Notes under the pieces: generated by a model | Told to the model about the DNA's origin: nothing | What the model saw: the letters and a program-made list of their open reading frames with translations, nothing else | Database searches by the model: none | Shown: positions 2,216 through 11,480 of the stretch, in pieces | How the letters are laid out: every line of letters starts with the position of its first letter | How positions within the stretch are numbered: the first letter of the stretch is position 1 | Virus record (IMG/VR): IMGVR_UViG_2711768101_000011 | DNA from: a virus | Lineage: Duplodnaviria; Heunggongvirae; Uroviricota; Caudoviricetes | Reading direction: 5' to 3' (one strand) | DNA length: 16,377 nucleotides | Position numbers and translations under genes: made by a program

Positions 2216-2418
2216 ATTTTCACTTTTTTAAATCCAACGACAGACGGCTGGCATTTAAGTATTGTGAAATATTATCAAATGTAATCATCATTGATTTACA
2301 AAAGATACATTTTGCCCCGAAAGGATTCATGTCAGAAACATCAAAAGATGATGTTCTATACTGGGAACCATGACAACACGGGCATCTAAAGTGAATATGG
2401 TTTGTAATATTGTCTACC

Positions 2419-2631
2419 TCAAAGCGCCACTACATGAACAGCGGCAGGACCTTTAGGTCCGTTCTCAATACCAAATTCAACTTCCTGATTCTCAGTTAAT
2501 GTTTTGAAATCGTTGCTCTGAATTGCTGAGAAATGGACAAACACATCTTTGCTGCCATCTTTCGGCGTGATGAAACCAAAACCTTTTTCAGGGTTAAACC
2601 ATTTCACTAAACCAGTCATTTTGTTAGACAT
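2419..2631 (-). CDS. cspI: CspA-family cold shock protein (70 aa)
   Basis: [38 protein letters not shown]... carries RNP1/RNP2-type cold-shock domain motifs; AAGG Shine-Dalgarno; long AT-rich leader typical of csp genes; cspI versus cspB assignment is from context. Confidence 0.85.
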
Positions 2632-2992
2632 AATTATTACCTTTTGAAGAAATTAGCCCTTGGGCAGAATGGTCCGAAAAAAATATCAGAGAGAAAAACC
2701 AACAAGGAAATCTCAAGAGGTACAAATAATAAAATTATAACAATGACTGCTTCAGATAAATTTGTAACAAACCAGAACACCATTAACGCATGATTAACCA
2801 CCCATAGCAAGGATTACTTTTGTAAAGAAAAACACAGCAATGAAAGAATAGCTTTATTTATTAATAAAACGTGTCATTCTGATTAAGACCTTTTATCTTA
2901 CCCTTAAGATTTCAGGAATTTTGGCTCATGGAAGAGTCCTTTTTATTTAAATTTTACATTCCGCGATGTAAATGTTCCGATTTAATATTACC

Positions 2993-4332: not shown

Positions 4333-4548
4333 TTACTCTCTTCTCGCAACCTTACGCCTGTCTTCTTTAATCTTGAAATAAAGGTTTGTCAGATACGTCA
4401 GCATGCCAAATACCAGACTACCCAATACACCTATTGCCGCCCACTGTGAGGGCGTGACTTTATCGAGCAACTGTAAAAACCAGTAGCCAGCACTGCCTGC
4501 AGAGGTGCTGTAGGCGATGCCCGTTGTTAACTTATCCATGGATTTCAT
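4333..4548 (-). CDS. Class II holin (EssD/EssQ-like, 71 aa)
   Basis: [71 protein letters not shown]: two hydrophobic segments and charged C-terminus; GGAGGTG Shine-Dalgarno before the internal ATG of the ORF-track ORF. Confidence 0.8.
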
Positions 4549-4639
4549 AGCCTCACCTCCGCAGATAACGGATGGTGTACACGGTTTGGTTCGAAGAAGG
4601 AAAGAAGTTACATTAGCGTAAGGCCCGAACATCTATTCA

Positions 4640-4670
4640 AAAAGAAAAACGCCAGCAATTATTCTGGCGT
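4640..4670 (-). terminator. Rho-independent terminator downstream of the AraC-family gene
   Basis: On the minus strand, CGCCAG-AATAATTG-CTGGCG hairpin followed by TTTTTCTTTTT, about 70 nt after the stop at 4739. Confidence 0.5.
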
Positions 4671-4738: not shown

Positions 4739-5154
4739 CTAAGAAAATCTTGATAAATATTGGTGCGGAGGCACACCAAAATATCCTCTAAAAACACTTA
4801 CAAAATATGATGCATTGTCATACCCGCATATTCCCGCCACCTTTCCGACAGTATGGTTACTGTAGATCAATAATCTTTGCGCCATCATCATTCGTTCTTC
4901 AAGAATTAATTTACTAAACGATATTCCTTCGTCTTTTAATTTTCTTTTTAACAAACTCTCGCTCATATATAATCTTGAAGATATATCACAAAGTCTCCAT
5001 GACGCTGAGATATCCGAGTGAATAATAGCCTTAACTTTACAACCTAAGCTATTAAGACTTCCGAACAAAAAACTTTGCACTATTTTCTCTGAAGATAAGA
5101 CAGCAAGACATGCAAGTGATATTTGATTTCTAACTACATCCACGGTTTTGCTAT
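4739..5154 (-). pseudogene. AraC-family regulator (AppY/EnvY-like), C-terminal fragment separated from its N-terminus by the IS5 insertion
   Basis: Host-derived part of ORF 4739-5320 carries the AraC-type HTH region (...GICGYDNASYFVSVFRGYFGVPPHQY); the first 55 codons of that ORF are IS sequence. Confidence 0.7.
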
Positions 5155-6350
<1,196 letters not shown>

Positions 6351-6652
6351 CTATCACAATTCAAGCATGCAACCAAGTTCTTTAACAATGAAAAATCTTC
6401 ACATTCTACTATCAAGTATGACGGATAAAACCTTCTTACAGAAAAAGGTGAGAGTGTGTAGTTTTTAAAGAAATCATTAACTGTTTTCTCCTCAACATCT
6501 ACGATCATTAGATGATCTGTATTTGACGAAAAAAGATCTTTTAAATTGTATTCAATGAGGACATCATTTCCTTTTTTAAACAAAATATCTTCTTTACCAA
6601 TTCGGACACCAAACGAGTTCAACACCAAAATGATAGAACATATGTATGGCAT
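6351..6652 (-). pseudogene. AraC-family regulator (AppY/EnvY-like), N-terminal fragment
   Basis: MPYICSIILVLNSFGVRIGKEDILFKKG... resembles the AppY N-terminus; joining this fragment to 4739-5154 after removing the IS and one CTAT copy restores one continuous frame of about 240 aa (frame arithmetic done by hand). Confidence 0.65.
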
Positions 6653-7058
6653 ATTATCCACCTGATATCATTGGGGTTACACCAGGTAAGTATAGGTGGA
6701 AAATCAATATTCGCCAGTTCAACAATAAGGAAAATCTCATTGCATCACAACTATAAAACCATGTGTTTAACTCACAAAAAACAAATCATTAAACTAATCT
6801 GTTATATTATAATAGCTGCGTGCAATAATAATATTATATGCTCTTAATATTCACTTGAAATATCTTCATATAAAAACAGATTGAATAAAATCTTTTGGGG
6901 CTGGTATGTTTACCAACATTAAATTGCATCTCAATGTTTTCTTTAGCGTGAACAGGATTTTTATACAAACTGACACTATGGGCATCATAGCGTAGTTTTT
7001 ACGATTGTAAATATCCTGCATACAGGAACTCATCACTTTCAGATGATATCGCATACAG

Positions 7059-8018
7059 TTAATTCACCATCAGTCTTAGAGCCAGTTCTTCCGGATAGGG
7101 ATCGAAGTAATTCTGTGTAAGCAAGTAATCATTAGGATACTCACCCAGATAATGCTTCAGCAGAGTCAACGGCGCAAGAAGAGGCAATGTGCCAAAGCGA
7201 TAGTTAAGTATAACCTCGCTCAACTCTTTACGCTGGCGTGTACTTAAGTAATTACTAAAATACCCCTGTATATGCATCAGCACATTCGTGTGATTTTTAC
7301 GTGATGCTGGTTTTCTGAGAATCGCCATCAGATTATCACGATACACCTCAAAGTATGATTCAAGGTCCGCCCACTCGTGTATTGCAGCCACAAATGGTCC
7401 CATATCTTTATAGCCTGCCTGGCTATGCGCCAACAACTGAAGCTTATAACGACTATGAAAAGCTAATAACTCTCTTCTTGATAATTTCTCCTTGTAAAGA
7501 TGATTGAGCTCATGCAAAGCAAAAACTCTTTCAATAAAATTCTCACGAAGCACTGGATCATGTAATCGCCCATCCTCTTCAACCGGTAGCCAGGAAAACT
7601 TTTCCATCAAAGTGCTCGTAAATAGTCCCACCCCATCTTTACGACCTCGATTACCATTTTCATCATAGACACGCACGCGCTCCATGCCACAGCTGGGAGA
7701 TTTAGCACAAACCACAAACCCCGATACATCCTTTAATTTGTCCATATAAGAACGACTAAACTCTGTCATTCTCTCTGTCACATCCTCATTCTGGTCGTGG
7801 CTGAAACACATCCGTATATTTCCTTGCTTCGAGCGCACAAGTCGTAGAGCAGGACGCGGAACTGGCAGCCCTATAGCCATTTCCGGACATACTGGTCTGA
7901 ATGTTACCCATTCCACTAATTTGTCCATTAAAAAGTCATCTCTTTTGTGACCACCATCAAAACGAACAGCAGAACCGCCCAAACAACCGCTGATCCCAAT
8001 CACAGGTTTTTTTATCAT
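7059..8018 (-). CDS. DUF523-DUF1722 fusion protein (TudS / YbgA-like putative Fe-S thiouracil desulfidase family)
   Basis: 319 aa; N-terminal Cys-containing motifs (GISGCLGG, RPVCPE, KSPSCG) consistent with DUF523; C-terminal half YbgA/DUF1722-like; strong AAGGGGGAGGAA Shine-Dalgarno before the ATG. Confidence 0.7.
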   Translation of the reverse strand: MIKKPVIGISGCLGGSAVRFDGGHKRDDFLMDKLVEWVTFRPVCPEMAIGLPVPRPALRLVRSKQGNIRMCFSHDQNEDVTERMTEFSRSYMDKLKDVSGFVVCAKSPSCGMERVRVYDENGNRGRKDGVGLFTSTLMEKFSWLPVEEDGRLHDPVLRENFIERVFALHELNHLYKEKLSRRELLAFHSRYKLQLLAHSQAGYKDMGPFVAAIHEWADLESYFEVYRDNLMAILRKPASRKNHTNVLMHIQGYFSNYLSTRQRKELSEVILNYRFGTLPLLAPLTLLKHYLGEYPNDYLLTQNYFDPYPEELALRLMVN

Positions 8019-8210
8019 TTCCTCCCCCTTGACTAATTCATTAACACATAAACTTTGTAGTGCACTGACTAAATTGCCTTTCTGGCTTCATCACTGACAA
8101 TTTTTCTGTTATTGACTATTCCTAATATAGTAGGAAAGTTCTTTAAGTGATCGGTCGTACTCATCTATCTTTCATACTTACTCTCAACTATCAAAAGTAC
8201 AGGATTTATT

Positions 8211-8735
8211 ATGAAGTTATGGCCTGTGTTGACTGGCATTGCACTCTCTTTCACTCTTATAGCATGTAAGGCCCCGACACCACCTAAAGGTGTGCAGCCG
8301 ATTACAAATTTTGACGCCAACCGCTACCTCGGAAAATGGTATGAAATAGCTCGCCTCGAGAACTGGTTCGAACGTGGTCTGGAACAGGTCAGCGCTACTT
8401 ATGAAAAACGGAACGACGGAGGGATTCGCGTACTTAACCGTGGATACGATCCAACGAAAAACAAATGGAGCGAGAGCGAAGGTAAAGCATACTTTACTGG
8501 AGATACTAAAACTGCAGCGTTGAAAGTTTCGTTTTTTGGCCCCTTCTATGGTGGCTATAATGTAATCAAGCTGGATGATGAGTATAAGTATGCTCTTGTC
8601 AGTGGTCCGAACAGAGAATACCTATGGATTCTGGCAAGGACCCAAACTATTCCAGATAATGTAAAAGCAGACTATGTGCGTACCGCTCAAAAGTTGGGAT
8701 TCAATGTCAATGAACTATTATGGGTTAAACAATAA
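8211..8735 (+). CDS. blc: Outer-membrane lipocalin, Blc homologue
   Basis: Lipoprotein signal peptide with lipobox LIAC; lipocalin motifs (NFDANRYLGKWYEIARLENWFERG, KVSFFGPFYGGYNVIKLD) closely match Blc but are clearly diverged from the chromosomal copy as I remember it. Confidence 0.8.
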   Translation: MKLWPVLTGIALSFTLIACKAPTPPKGVQPITNFDANRYLGKWYEIARLENWFERGLEQVSATYEKRNDGGIRVLNRGYDPTKNKWSESEGKAYFTGDTKTAALKVSFFGPFYGGYNVIKLDDEYKYALVSGPNREYLWILARTQTIPDNVKADYVRTAQKLGFNVNELLWVKQ

Positions 8736-8763
8736 AATCCCCACCCGAAATGATACTTATTAG

Positions 8764-8790
8764 AAAAAAACCAGCCTTTGGGGAGGCTGG
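8764..8790 (-). terminator. tR'-like rho-independent terminator downstream of Q (also at the 3' end of blc on the other strand)
   Basis: CCAGCCT-loop-AGGCTGG hairpin; on the minus strand it is followed by TTTTTTT. Confidence 0.55.
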
Positions 8791-8794
8791 CTAA

Positions 8795-8890
8795 ATCAGG
8801 AAACAAGCTGTTATATGATAATAACTACGTTGCGATTCCAACATTTAAAATGTTAGACTAATGAAAATCAGACAGCAACTTTTCCTTTAA
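8795..8890 (-). promoter_or_regulatory. Probable late promoter (PR'-like) and qut region between Q and the terminator
   Basis: Inferred from lambdoid architecture (Q gene, short leader, terminator); only weak sigma70-like hexamers seen (e.g. TTGCTG-17-TAACAT); exact promoter not resolved. Confidence 0.3.
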
Positions 8891-9268
8891 TTATTTCGAA
8901 CAATCAGCATCCATCTCCAATCGGAGATCCAACACCATCAGCATGCCCTCCACTACGCCCTCAGCTTTCTGGAGCATCCTGCCAACCCAACAATCAGATC
9001 GCCCATGCTTACGTGCAAGCGCCATAAAAGTCATGCCGCCGACATAATAGTCCACCAATAAATCATGTAAATCGCTGTTGTTTTTTTTCAGGCGAGCCAT
9101 ACATTCACAAATGATCATCGCGTCATCGTCACAGCATTGCGGACGAGATCTTACTTTTGAAGGAATTAATCCCTTAAAACCGGCGGCAATGGACGACCAG
9201 GTCACATCTTCATGATTATTAGCCGCCCATGCCCCCCAACGCTCAAGAACCATCTGAATATCACGCAT
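8891..9268 (-). CDS. Antitermination protein Q (QuuD / phage 82-21 type)
   Basis: [34 protein letters not shown]...[33 protein letters not shown] matches QuuD closely from memory; GGAG Shine-Dalgarno before ATG at 9268; the ORF-track start at 9283 is a TTG. Confidence 0.8.
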
Positions 9269-9285
9269 CAACTTACTCCACAAAA

Positions 9286-10335
9286 TTAGGCCAGCACACC
9301 AATTGCCAGCGCGCGATCGATAAATCGAAAAATCAGCTCCAGTTGGGAGCCATACTTCTCTTCAAATGCCACGGTATCCGTATGCAACTCGTCGTGATGC
9401 TTTCTGCACAAAGGCAACACAAAGAGATCATGTGCTTTGGTTCCCATTCCGCCCTGCCCGTGACCAATCAGATGATGCGGATCGTCGGCTGGCATACCGC
9501 AGCAAGCACACGGCTGTGTCTTAACCCAGCGTGTGTATTTCTCCTTAACCCAACGGTGACGTTTAGGCAGCTTCATGAAAGATTCCGGAGACTCTGGATC
9601 AACGGTGATGCTTACCACCGTCTTTTCCTGTGATGGGTTTTGTTGCTGGTGGGCGTGAGGCAACGGTGCAAGATTTTTTGTGCGCTGTTTCAATATGCTG
9701 GTGGCGGTCTGCTCTCCCGGTACGATGTCGCTTTCGCGGTACACCGCGCAGTTTTTTTCCGCTGGTAATCCCAGCGAGCGACGTAATACCGCTTCCGGTA
9801 GCGCGTCCGCCACCTGATTGCGGACCGCCCACCAGGATAATTCAGCCAGAGATAATTCACGCTCCTGCGTACCGCTTATTGCGTGACCGATGACGTCAAT
9901 CATCCATGCTGACAGGTTTTGATGAGCAAGTTGCTCGAGTGATTCGGATGTCTGGTCACGCAGCTGGTTGTCGCAGTGCCAGCACAACACCATTGCGCCG
10001 GTACCATAACGGTGAATAACGGTTTCGCTGTGATGATAATCGCCGTGTGGCCACTGGCAGGATTTAATATGGCGCAACAGCCAGTCAGACAATGCACCAG
10101 CACCACCAGCAGCACGAATTACCCGTGCGTTACTGAAAAACGGCAGCAATGTTTTGTCTTCCACCAGCGGCTGGCGAACGGCAGGAACGACCCCGGACGG
10201 CAGATTACGCATGCTTTTCGGTTCCGGCTCCACCAGTACCCGGGTATTGTGGAATACCGGCATGGATTCACGGCCCGGCTTAACGACCACCAGCCCGAGT
10301 TCCGGTACCAGAACAGGTCGAAGTAATATCCGCAC
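9286..10335 (-). CDS. ydfU: YdfU-like prophage protein (DUF968, HNH-like C-terminus)
   Basis: 349 aa; C-terminal [21 protein letters not shown]...[10 protein letters not shown] motif; GTG start with GGAGG Shine-Dalgarno; resembles Qin YdfU. Confidence 0.8.
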
Positions 10336-11149: not shown

Positions 11150-11305
11150 TTACTCCTCAGGTTCGTAAGCTGTGAAGACAGCGACCTCCGTCTGGTCGGT
11201 TCGGATTCGTACCTCGCAGAGGTCTTTCCTCGTTACCAGTGCCGTCACTATGACGGTTAAACAGATGACGATCAGGGCGATTAACATCGCCTTTTGCTGC
11301 TTCAT
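11150..11305 (-). CDS. hokD: Hok-family type I toxin (HokD/RelF-like, 51 aa)
   Basis: MKQQKAMLIALIVICLTVIVTALVTRKDLCEVRIRTDQTEVAVFTAYEPEE; AAGGAG Shine-Dalgarno before the internal ATG; the ORF-track ORF extends in frame upstream to 11362. Confidence 0.8.
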   Translation of the reverse strand: MKQQKAMLIALIVICLTVIVTALVTRKDLCEVRIRTDQTEVAVFTAYEPEE

Positions 11306-11480
11306 AGCCTGCTTCTCCTTGCCTTTCGGCACGTAAGAGGCTAACCTACATGTGTCTAGCATGAAATTGGCCTCAGATTAATGTTAAGCGTCTTGCAGGA
11401 CGCGTAATGTTAACTGGGGCTTTTCTCTATCTGCCGTTGATGTTCATGCCCGAGGCAGATAGCCTCAAGCACCCGCAGCC
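11306..11480 (-). promoter_or_regulatory. hok mRNA leader region with structured elements (possible antisense/sok-equivalent region)
   Basis: Perfect 9-bp inverted repeat CTATCTGCC (11427-11435) / GGCAGATAG (11454-11462); hok loci are known to be controlled through leader structure and an antisense RNA; no sok promoter was positively identified. Confidence 0.3.

What the first reader, a model, noticed from the sequence alone, without database searches (positions are those of the whole stretch)
8764..8890. Q antiterminator followed by a short leader and a tR'-like terminator that abuts a convergent gene
The arrangement of Q, a roughly 100-nt leader and a strong hairpin plus U7 matches the lambda PR'/6S RNA/tR' module, so late transcription here probably depends on Q-modified polymerase. 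The same hairpin sits 30 nt past the blc stop on the other strand, so one structure may end both convergent transcripts. The promoter hexamers are weak and I could not place PR' precisely.
Basis: partly seen in the sequence, partly recalled or inferred. Interest (0 to 1): 0.35.

Follow-up and report, generated by a model that had tools for sequence, protein, structure and literature searches.

The report
Orphan tR'-type terminator after Q
The hairpin after the prophage's Q gene is a real one-way transcription terminator related to the late terminator of Shiga-toxin phages, but the late promoter that this Q protein family uses lies about 1.9 kb further on, so this is an ordinary operon-end terminator rather than the late-gene switch.

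Summary
The sequence features are real. A 125-aa Q gene (8891-9268, minus strand, Pfam PF06530) is followed by 98 nt, then a GC-rich hairpin (8792-8771) and seven T's (8770-8764). The convergent lipocalin gene stops 35 nt away.

The hairpin is homologous to the mapped tR' terminator of 933W/Sp5 Shiga-toxin phages. The reading as a PR'/6S/tR' module does not hold:
- This Q belongs to the Q933/QuuD group, whose late promoter has a conserved signature: the palindrome TTTACR-NN-YGTAAA over the -35, a TAnnnT -10, and an AGTG start.
- That signature is absent from 8764-8890.
- It is present, in register, at 7011-6977, after the lipocalin and ybgA-like genes. K-12 DLP12 has the same layout: quuD, nmpC, promoter, essD.
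- None of 88 window-type hairpins in viral contigs has the palindrome upstream. The 933W type has it 263 nt upstream in 43 of 58.

The plus strand has no U-tract, so the hairpin is not a shared terminator for the lipocalin gene.

Most likely the hairpin is an orphaned tR'-type terminator that ends transcription leaving Q. A short StxS-like RNA from a weak local promoter is not excluded. The feature is ordinary and of low interest.

The parts
8891..9268 (-). Q antiterminator gene, 125 aa, of the Q933/QuuD group within Pfam PF06530. The putative recognition helix reads [10 protein letters not shown]; relatives have CSDG(H/Y)IGK(K/R)L.
8793..8890 (-). 98-nt spacer between the Q stop codon and the terminator. 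It lacks the promoter/QBE signature of the Q933 family. It holds two weak sigma-70 candidates. P-a is TGGAGA-18-AATAAT (8919-8890, start near 8883). P-b is TTGCTG-17-TAACAT (8878-8850, start near 8843).
   Evidence: P-a, 9 of 12. P-b was read from the sequence (7 of 12, below the tool's threshold). (no palindrome). (both candidates kept in ev087 and IdasGreatGrand; ev087 has TGnGATAAT at P-a).
8793..8845 (-). Segment homologous to the body of the StxS small RNA and the tR'-proximal leader of Sp5/933W. The rpoS-pairing seed is not conserved (GCAACGUAG versus GUAACGAAG).
   Evidence: local alignment score 43, reached by 0 of 1000 shuffles. (duplex with the rpoS site: -8.1 kcal/mol for the window RNA, -23.8 for StxS).
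8771..8792 (-). Stem-loop of terminator T1: AGCCAGCCU-CCCCAA-AGGCUGG.
   Evidence: The stem is invariant in 36 haplotypes.
8764..8770 (-). U7 tract of T1, on the minus strand only.
   Evidence: tail score -5.67. T-run length varies from 6 to 9 among relatives.
8211..8735 (+). Convergent lipocalin (Blc-like) gene, an accessory 'moron' gene. Its stop codon is 35 nt from the T1 stem. There is no U-tract after the hairpin on this strand.
7059..8018 (-). YbgA-like gene (2-thiouracil desulfurase domain plus DUF1722). It is the second accessory gene between Q and the late promoter.
6977..7011 (-). Probable true late promoter/qut, called PR'B here. It comprises the palindrome TTTACAATCGTAAA (7011-6998, overlapping the -35 TTTACA), a 16-nt spacer, the -10 TATGAT (6989-6984), and a predicted start at A6977 (AGTG).
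   Evidence: 1-mismatch match. (10 of 12, best site in the scanned region). (shares all 16 invariant columns with 13 family promoters). (invariant island in ev087 and IdasGreatGrand amid diverged flanks)..
6957..6971 (-). Conserved CAGTTTGTAWAAAAA at about +6 to +21 of PR'B. It contains -10-like hexamers (TATAAA, AAAAAT) and is a candidate sigma-dependent pause element. This is inference only.
   Evidence: conserved in all three lineages. Sequence.
6783..6821 (-). Second copy of a 39-nt segment also found at 8830-8793 (about 82% identical). It is followed by GTTTTTTG with no hairpin. It is absent in ev087.
   Evidence: (reached by 0 of 1000 shuffles).
4634..4670 (-). Terminator T2 (ACGCCAGAATAATTGCTGGCGT followed by TTTTCTTTTT), just upstream of the holin gene. 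It is the first predicted intrinsic terminator between PR'B and the holin gene in the IS-free relative ev087 (in the window itself the IS5 insertion adds other terminator-like hits between PR'B and T2), so it is the likely functional tR'.
   Evidence: same site in ev087; tail score -5.29.
4333..4548 (-). Holin gene (P21-type S), the first lysis gene of the late operon.

Best explanation
The hairpin plus U7 at 8792-8764 is a one-directional Rho-independent terminator on the Q strand. By descent it is a tR'-type terminator with part of its leader, the same mosaic unit that forms StxS/tR' in 933W-type phages. In this prophage lineage it has no late promoter in front of it.

It most likely ends transcription that leaves the Q gene: the early rightward operon, plus any weak local initiation. 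This would keep unmodified polymerase from running antisense through the convergent lipocalin gene and on into the late region.

The Q-dependent switch lies elsewhere. Q, made from the early transcript, would act in trans at the family-type promoter PR'B (7011-6977), which sits after the lipocalin and ybgA-like genes. Q-modified polymerase would then read through the AraC-family gene and terminator T2 (4670-4634) into the holin, lysozyme and Rz genes.

Shown by sequence analysis: the terminator anatomy and its strand asymmetry, the homology to Sp5 tR', the absence of the family promoter signature here and its presence at 7011-6977.

Inferred: that the palindrome is the Q-binding element, that PR'B is active and Q-responsive, and that T1 stops early transcripts in vivo.
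For: 1. Terminator quality and asymmetry.
- 9-pair stem, -14.9 kcal/mol, U7, tail score -5.67 on the minus strand against -2.04 on the plus strand.
- The stem is invariant in 36 haplotypes.

2. Homology to a mapped tR'.
- Local alignment to the Sp5 StxS/tR' region scores 43, reached by 0 of 1000 dinucleotide shuffles.
- The Sp5 tR' 3' end and the PR' start site were mapped by Term-seq and dRNA-seq, 258 nt apart (PMC7547250).

3. Family promoter signature.
- The Q is about 80% identical to Q933.
- 21 loci carry an exact TTTACG-NN-CGTAAA.
- The alignment of 16 promoters has invariant TTTAC, CGTAAAA and TA...T columns.
- Working back 258 nt from the tR' U-tract places the Sp5 start site 7-8 nt after the TAnnnT hexamer.

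4. Location of the signature in the window.
- With up to 2 mismatches the only promoter-like match is 7011-6998.
- That site is TTTACA-16-TATGAT, 10 of 12, the best in its scanned region.
- It is an invariant island in two diverged phages.

5. Precedent.
- K-12 DLP12 has quuD, then convergent nmpC::IS5, then the same promoter module 200 nt before essD.
- The phages ev243 and PhiR49_1 have the same layout.
- QuuD is reported to control the DLP12 lysis cassette (Rueggeberg 2013, as cited in PMC7918800).

6. Census of viral contigs.
- 0 of 88 window-type hairpins have the palindrome within 600 nt upstream.
- 43 of 58 933W-type hairpins have it 263 nt upstream.

7. The leader/terminator unit is also found behind lambda-type and other Q/PR' types, so it moves independently of Q.

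8. The same Q, T1, blc, ybgA, PR'B, AraC, T2, holin order occurs in 12 deposited phage genomes. One of them, IdasGreatGrand, was isolated on E. coli, so the layout is compatible with a viable phage.
Against: - No transcript data exist for this locus. Neither the activity of PR'B nor termination at T1 has been measured.
- The assignment of the palindrome as the Q-binding element rests on conservation and position only. No QBE has been defined biochemically for the Q933/QuuD group in the papers I could read.
- This Q differs from its relatives at about five positions of the putative recognition helix. It could therefore recognise something other than the canonical palindrome.
- Two weak promoter candidates upstream of T1 are conserved in all three lineages. 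-10-like hexamers (TATTAT, TATCAT, TATAAC) lie between them and the hairpin.
- If the early operon is N-antiterminated, T1 would not stop it.
Confidence: 0.6

Rival explanations
1. A late promoter PR' with its Q-loading site lies in 8795-8890. It constitutively makes a roughly 80-120-nt RNA ended at the hairpin (the tR'). Q-modified polymerase reads through the hairpin to express the late genes.
For: - The position directly after Q matches lambda, 21, 82 and 933W.
- The terminator is homologous to a real tR'.
- Weak promoter candidates P-a and P-b are conserved.
- -10-like hexamers downstream of P-b could serve as a pause element.
- The Q recognition helix is unusual, so its binding site could also be unusual.
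- The leader/terminator unit follows several different PR' types elsewhere.
Against: - The signature shared by every other promoter of this Q family is absent here and present at 7011-6977 in the same window.
- The stretch holding the candidate promoters (8890-8837) is the most variable of the Q-to-hairpin segments compared: 18.5 variable sites per 100 nt, against 10.3 in the Q coding sequence.
- The only palindrome in the interval (8854-8840) is broken in ev087.
- The -10-like hexamers lie at about +21 to +34. From my own knowledge of these phages, that is beyond the +1 to +15 range of the known Q-loading pause elements.
- The next gene is convergent.
- A second, family-typical promoter would be redundant.
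Confidence: 0.1
2. The interval is a stand-alone small-RNA gene derived from StxS. A weak local sigma-70 promoter (P-b near 8843, or P-a near 8883) makes a roughly 80-120-nt RNA with a U-rich stretch, the T1 hairpin and a U7 tail. It would act in trans through Hfq on targets other than rpoS. This is compatible with T1 also ending the Q operon.
For: - The segment is homologous to the body and terminator of StxS, a proven Hfq-dependent sRNA (PMC7547250).
- Sy et al. report a primary start-site call at the 5' end of short StxS, which aligns with the window's P-b start.
- The RNA folds better than shuffles, z = -3.9.
- It has a U-rich segment before the hairpin and a long U tail.
- The region is present in 1115 of 5426 complete E. 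coli genomes, including BL21(DE3).
Against: - The promoter candidates are weak, and the count of promoter-like sites is not above shuffles.
- The StxS seed for rpoS is lost: -8.1 kcal/mol, no better than shuffles.
- The pre-hairpin body is no more conserved than the neighbouring coding sequence: 13.6 against 10.3 variable sites per 100 nt.
- There is no Rfam family match and no ncRNA annotation in RefSeq.
- Sy et al. attribute short StxS to RNase E processing rather than to its own promoter.
Confidence: 0.2
3. The hairpin is a bidirectional terminator that also ends the convergent lipocalin transcript.
For: - The stem folds about as well on the plus strand: -12.2 to -12.6 kcal/mol for the stem-loop alone, against -11.3 on the minus strand, and -14.3 against -14.9 kcal/mol for the longer segments.
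- It lies 35 nt past the blc stop codon.
- No other plus-strand terminator is predicted in 8000-9400.
Against: - The plus-strand tail is CTAAATCAGG, with 2 T's in the first 8 nt.
- Its tail score is -2.04, equal to the window median.
- The terminator scan reports the site on the minus strand only.
- From my own knowledge, described bidirectional terminators have an A-tract and a U-tract flanking the stem. Here only one side is U-rich.
Confidence: 0.1

Closest known systems
PR'-StxS-tR' region of Stx phages Sp5/933W (Sy et al. 2020, PMC7547250)
   Same: - Same Q family, about 80% identity over residues 1-120.
- The terminator hairpin GCCAGCCUCCCC...GGCUGG plus U-run, and about 50-85 nt before it, are homologous.
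- Same orientation relative to Q.
   Different: - In Sp5 the terminator lies 258 nt downstream of a mapped PR' that overlaps the end of Q. In the window no such promoter precedes it.
- The proximal leader, including the first terminator-like hairpin, is missing.
- The rpoS seed is not conserved.
- The next gene is a convergent lipocalin rather than tRNAs and stx.
E. coli K-12 DLP12: quuD, nmpC, late promoter, essD-rrrD-rzpD
   Same: - Q of the same group, 86% identical.
- Q is cut short right after ...LEMD.
- A convergent accessory gene lies between Q and the family-type promoter, and that promoter sits just before the lysis genes.
- QuuD is reported to control the lysis cassette (cited in PMC7918800).
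   Different: - In DLP12 the gap after Q has no tR'-like hairpin on the Q strand. Its clearest terminator faces the porin gene.
- The DLP12 promoter is followed within about 50 nt by its own terminator. The window's PR'B has none until T2, and an AraC-family gene lies in between.
Phage lambda PR'/6S RNA/tR'
   Same: General logic only: a Q gene, an intrinsic terminator downstream on the same strand, and late lysis genes further on.
   Different: - Lambda Q belongs to a different protein family.
- From my own knowledge, lambda has its QBE between -35 and -10, an AACGAT pause element at +1 to +6, and a 194-nt transcript.
- None of these elements is found in 8764-8890.
Phage 21 Q and its QBE (PDB 6P18/6JNX; Shi et al. 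2019, PMC6606751)
   Same: Same Pfam family (PF06530). The alignable N-terminal part and the first HTH helix match at E=5e-9.
   Different: - Identity is only about a third, over 83 residues.
- Q21 is 162 aa with a long loop before the recognition helix.
- Its QBE is a direct repeat of TGAGCA between -35 and -10. I saw no TGAGCA repeat when reading 8764-8890; I ran no pattern search for it.
- The Q933 group instead has an inverted repeat overlapping the -35.

Membership tests
Lambdoid late-promoter module (PR'-qut-tR') | A constitutive sigma-70 promoter directly downstream of Q | tested here: inconclusive
   Only weak candidates exist: TGGAGA-18-AATAAT (9 of 12) and TTGCTG-17-TAACAT (7 of 12, by eye). 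The region has 5 promoter-like sites against a shuffle mean of 3.6. There are no transcript data.
Lambdoid late-promoter module (PR'-qut-tR') | A Q-binding element cognate to the resident Q, within or next to the promoter | tested here: not met
   The element conserved in the Q933/QuuD group is TTTACR-NN-YGTAAA, overlapping the -35. It has no match with up to 2 mismatches in 8764-8890 and matches at 7011-6998. That this palindrome is the QBE is an inference from conservation.
Lambdoid late-promoter module (PR'-qut-tR') | A -10-like sigma-dependent pause element in the initially transcribed region | tested here: inconclusive
   -10-like hexamers TATTAT, TATCAT and TATAAC lie at 8823-8810, about +21 to +34 from the P-b start. 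From my own knowledge this is further downstream than in lambda, 21 or 82. Pausing cannot be tested in silico.
Lambdoid late-promoter module (PR'-qut-tR') | An intrinsic terminator downstream on the same strand | tested here: met
Lambdoid late-promoter module (PR'-qut-tR') | Q-dependent read-through into late genes | not testable with these tools
   This needs in vitro transcription with and without Q, or reporter fusions.
StxS/tR' unit of 933W-type phages | Sequence homology of the terminator hairpin and the preceding leader | tested here: met
   Local alignment score 43, reached by 0 of 1000 shuffles. The hairpin core GCCAGCCTCCCC...GGCTGG is shared.
StxS/tR' unit of 933W-type phages | Lies about 258 nt downstream of the PR' start site | tested here: not met
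   0 of 88 window-type hairpins have the palindrome within 600 nt upstream. 43 of 58 933W-type hairpins have it at 263 nt.
StxS/tR' unit of 933W-type phages | A seed that pairs with the activating site of the rpoS leader | tested here: not met
   StxS: -23.8 kcal/mol, matched by 2 of 500 shuffles. Window RNA: -8.1 kcal/mol, matched by 406 of 500 shuffles.
StxS/tR' unit of 933W-type phages | Hfq binding and RNase E processing | not testable with these tools
   Needs CLIP or a Northern blot.
Bidirectional intrinsic terminator | A U-rich tract after the stem on both strands | tested here: not met
   Minus-strand tail TTTTTTTC scores -5.67. Plus-strand tail CTAAATCA scores -2.04, equal to the window median.
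Q933/QuuD-type antiterminator (Pfam PF06530) | Full-length match to the family profile and close identity to characterised members | tested here: met
   PF06530 at E=6.9e-51, residues 1-118 of 118. 79-86% identity to Q933 and QuuD. Distant match to Q21 structures.

The most novel reading that the evidence does not exclude
The roughly 80-120 nt before and including the hairpin may be a free-standing small RNA derived from StxS. It would have lost its PR' precursor and its rpoS seed, be transcribed in lysogens from its own weak promoter, and regulate different host or prophage targets. One candidate target is the convergent lipocalin mRNA 3' end, to which it is fully complementary. It would be present in about one fifth of complete E. 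coli genomes, including BL21(DE3).
Probability: 0.2. Interest if true: 0.45.

Novelty: new member of a known kind. Interest (0 to 1): 0.2.

Why it matters
The result mainly corrects an annotation.
- In Q933/QuuD-type prophages the late promoter cannot be assumed to sit right after Q. Accessory genes can be inserted between Q and its promoter.
- A tR'-like hairpin next to Q can be a leftover piece of a mosaic unit.
- The family signature TTTACR-NN-YGTAAA / TAnnnT / AGTG gives a simple way to place the late promoter in such prophages.
- Placing that promoter matters for predicting which accessory genes are Q-controlled. Here the lipocalin and ybgA-like genes lie outside the late transcription unit, and the AraC-family gene lies inside it.

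Nothing here challenges the known mechanism of Q antitermination.

Tried and rejected
- Rfam, at gathering and E-value thresholds. Nothing was found in 8700-8960 beyond generic sub-threshold terminator-like hits. Rfam has no StxS family, as the Sp5 control also showed.
- The palindrome AACATTT-T-AAATGTT (8854-8840) as a possible Q-binding site. Rejected because it is broken in ev087 (AATGTTTCAAATGTT).
- Conservation of the rpoS seed. Rejected. A first attempt with the whole rpoS leader gave non-local duplexes and was uninformative.
- Search for the shared motif TATTATNATATAACAGNTT in viral contigs. It returned only the two copies in this phage lineage plus chance AT-rich matches.
- Distant blastn of the interval against phage genomes. 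It found only the 12 phages with this same Q variant and no intermediate forms.
- A 17-codon ORF at 8844-8791. It has no Shine-Dalgarno sequence and carries non-synonymous changes in ev087, so I do not take it as coding.
- The Rueggeberg 2013/2015 papers on the DLP12 Q and promoter, and Plunkett 1999 on 933W, are not held in the library. The DLP12 comparison therefore rests on sequence and on secondary citation.
- I did not predict the Q structure. The recognition-helix assignment rests on the Q21 alignment and on the HTH description in PMC6606751.

Full report
**Context**

The window is a Qin-like lambdoid prophage of E. coli. It is 100% identical to strain YJ6 over the queried 1.4-kb stretch (8000-9400), and most genes are on the minus strand.

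Read along the minus strand, the local order is:
- ydfU (DUF968);
- Q (8891-9268);
- the interval in question;
- a convergent lipocalin gene (8211-8735, plus strand);
- a ybgA-like gene (7059-8018);
- an AraC-family gene interrupted by an IS5-family element;
- the holin, lysozyme and Rz genes.

The same Q-to-holin order, without the IS, occurs in 12 deposited phage genomes. Examples are Lambda_ev087 and IdasGreatGrand; the latter was isolated on E. coli. The interval itself is present at 90% identity or more in 1115 of 5426 complete E. coli genomes, including BL21(DE3).

**Check of the observation**

- The Q protein is 125 aa and matches Pfam PF06530 over its full length (E=6.9e-51).
- 98 nt separate its stop codon from a hairpin that the terminator scan reports on the minus strand only (8792-8769, 9 pairs, 6-nt loop). 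Seven T's follow.
- The fold is -14.9 kcal/mol, z = -3.4.
- A TransTermHP-style tail score is -5.67, beyond the 1st percentile of all window positions.
- The lipocalin stop codon is 35 nt from the stem.
- Among 36 distinct haplotypes the stem never varies. Only one loop position and the length of the T-run vary.

**What Q family this is, and what its late promoter looks like**

The Q is only distantly related to the structurally solved Q21 (E=5e-9 over 83 residues). It is 79-86% identical over residues 1-120 to the Q of 933W/Sp5-type Stx phages and to QuuD of K-12 DLP12.

I extracted the sequence downstream of Q in 23 genome loci. Relatives in several genera of Enterobacterales (Escherichia, Shigella, Trabulsiella, Citrobacter, Pantoea, Providencia, Xenorhabdus) share one module:
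- a perfect palindrome TTTACG-(TA/AT)-CGTAAA;
- 16 nt after the TTTACG, a TAnnnT hexamer;
- then ...AGTG..., a small hairpin and a terminator.

An alignment of 16 such promoters has invariant TTTAC, CGTAAAA and TA...T columns.

In Sakai Sp5 the palindrome overlaps the end of Q. Sy et al. mapped the PR' start and the tR' 3' end 258 nt apart (PMC7547250). Counting 258 nt back from the U-tract of the predicted tR' places the start on the A/G of AGTGG, which is 7-8 nt after the TATCAT hexamer. This step assumes a coordinate offset between genome versions. On that basis the module is the experimentally supported late promoter of this Q family.

The palindrome overlaps the -35. Its second half lies in the spacer, where a plain promoter needs no conservation. 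That is why I take it to be the Q-binding element. This is an inference, not a measurement.

**Where that promoter is in the window**

The signature is absent from 8764-8890. With up to two mismatches, the only promoter-like match in the window is TTTACAATCGTAAA at 7011-6998 on the minus strand. It lies just after the ybgA-like gene.

Evidence that this site, PR'B, is the family promoter:
- It reads TTTACA-16-TATGAT, which is 10 of 12 and the best sigma-70 site in its scanned region.
- It aligns in register with all 16 invariant columns of the family promoters.
- It is an invariant island in ev087 and IdasGreatGrand, although the flanks have diverged strongly.

The first predicted terminator downstream in the intact phages is T2 (window 4670-4634), directly before the holin gene.

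The same split arrangement exists in the reference K-12 genome. There quuD is followed by the convergent nmpC::IS5, and the canonical promoter module lies 2.9 kb further on, 200 nt before essD. The phages ev243 and PhiR49_1 have the same arrangement. QuuD is reported to control the DLP12 lysis cassette (Rueggeberg 2013, cited in PMC7918800).

In both lineages similarity to the other Q genes stops right after the codons for ...LEMD. This fits insertion of accessory genes between Q and its promoter.

**What the hairpin interval is**

Its distal part (about 8845-8764) is homologous to the StxS/tR' end of the Sp5 late leader. The local alignment scores 43 and no shuffle in 1000 reaches that.

A census of this hairpin type in viral contigs separates two classes:
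- The 933W type has the palindrome 263 nt upstream in 43 of 58 cases.
- The window type has it within 600 nt in 0 of 88 cases.

The remaining 933W-type cases sit behind other Q/PR' types, including a lambda-type promoter with the AACGAT pause element. The leader-plus-terminator is therefore a mosaic unit that recombines independently of Q. Here it has ended up without a family-type promoter in front of it.

A 39-nt piece of it (8830-8793) is repeated at 6821-6783, downstream of PR'B. That copy has no hairpin and is dispensable in ev087.

**Is there any promoter in the interval?**

Two weak candidates are conserved in the three lineages:
- P-a is TGGAGA-18-AATAAT (8919-8890). In ev087 it carries an extended -10, TGnGATAAT.
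- P-b is TTGCTG-17-TAACAT (8878-8850), or TAATGT in ev087.

P-b aligns with the position where Sy et al. saw a start-site call at the 5' end of short StxS. They attributed that RNA to RNase E processing.

Points against a strong or constrained promoter:
- The stretch 8890-8837 is the most variable of the Q-to-hairpin segments compared.
- The only palindrome there is not conserved.
- The RNA that would result has lost the rpoS seed.

A small StxS-like RNA is therefore possible but unsupported.

**Is the hairpin shared with the lipocalin gene?**

The stem folds about as well on both strands: -14.9 kcal/mol on the minus strand and -14.3 on the plus strand. On the plus strand, however, it is followed by CTAAATCAGG. 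The tail score there is -2.04, the window median, and the scan does not call a plus-strand terminator. By sequence it is a one-way terminator. The lipocalin transcript has no predicted intrinsic terminator and may run antisense into Q.

**Conclusion**

The most likely function of the hairpin is to end transcription that leaves Q and to insulate the convergent lipocalin gene. The Q-dependent late promoter lies at 7011-6977, with T2 as its terminator. I give this reading 0.6. The alternatives are:
- a stand-alone StxS-like RNA gene, 0.2 (this could coexist with the main reading);
- a bidirectional terminator, 0.1.

All of this is ordinary lambdoid mosaicism with a precedent in K-12.

Noticed in passing
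window 6977-7011 (minus strand), and 4634-4670: The probable true late promoter (TTTACAATCGTAAA palindrome, -10 TATGAT) has no terminator within the usual ~50 nt. The first predicted one (T2) is just before the holin gene. In intact relatives a 243-aa AraC-family gene lies between them, so a regulator may be transcribed from the late promoter in lysogens.
   Followed up: partly
window 8972-9001 (Q residues 90-99): The putative HTH recognition helix reads [10 protein letters not shown] (RSDCWIGRML in ev087). All relatives with the canonical palindrome have CSDG(H/Y)IGK(K/R)L. This lineage's palindrome also has one changed half-site (TTTACA instead of TTTACG). This may be a co-change of Q specificity and binding site.
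   Followed up: partly
window 8793-8830 and 6783-6821 (minus strand): A 39-nt direct repeat, about 82% identical and containing ATATAACAG, flanks the block of terminator, lipocalin, ybgA and late promoter. The downstream copy is followed by a T-run with no hairpin. A related ATATAACAG segment follows quuD in K-12 DLP12. It may be a recombination joint of the mosaic.
   Followed up: partly
L105:870-896 (Sp5) and L229:4254-4286 (K-12 DLP12): Most family promoters examined carry a strong terminator-like hairpin with a U-run at about +25 to +60. Sp5 has one too, yet there the mapped tR' is a second terminator at +258. How transcripts pass the first hairpin is not explained in the text I read.
   Followed up: no
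window 4739-6661: An IS5-family element (ISKpn26-like transposase, 5302-6282) splits the AraC-family gene. This adds about 1.2 kb between the late promoter and the lysis genes in this prophage.
   Followed up: partly
window 7059-8735: There is a divergent pair of accessory genes between Q and the late promoter. One is a lipocalin (Blc-like). The other is a YbgA-like protein with a 2-thiouracil desulfurase domain plus DUF1722.
   Followed up: no
window 11300-11474 and 2392-2776 (minus strand): Rfam matches above the gathering score: sok antitoxin RNA next to hokD, and the cspA-type thermoregulator leader upstream of cspI.
   Followed up: no
window 9290-9352 (minus strand): Two weak terminator-like hairpins lie at the end of ydfU, just upstream of the Q start codon. 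They may be early-operon terminators that limit Q expression.
   Followed up: no
L056 (IMG/VR contig 2541047874_000003): One relative has a foreign insertion after the position equivalent to 8836, separating Q from the terminator. I took it to be an IS-family element from the first residues of its reading frame, without a database check.
   Followed up: no
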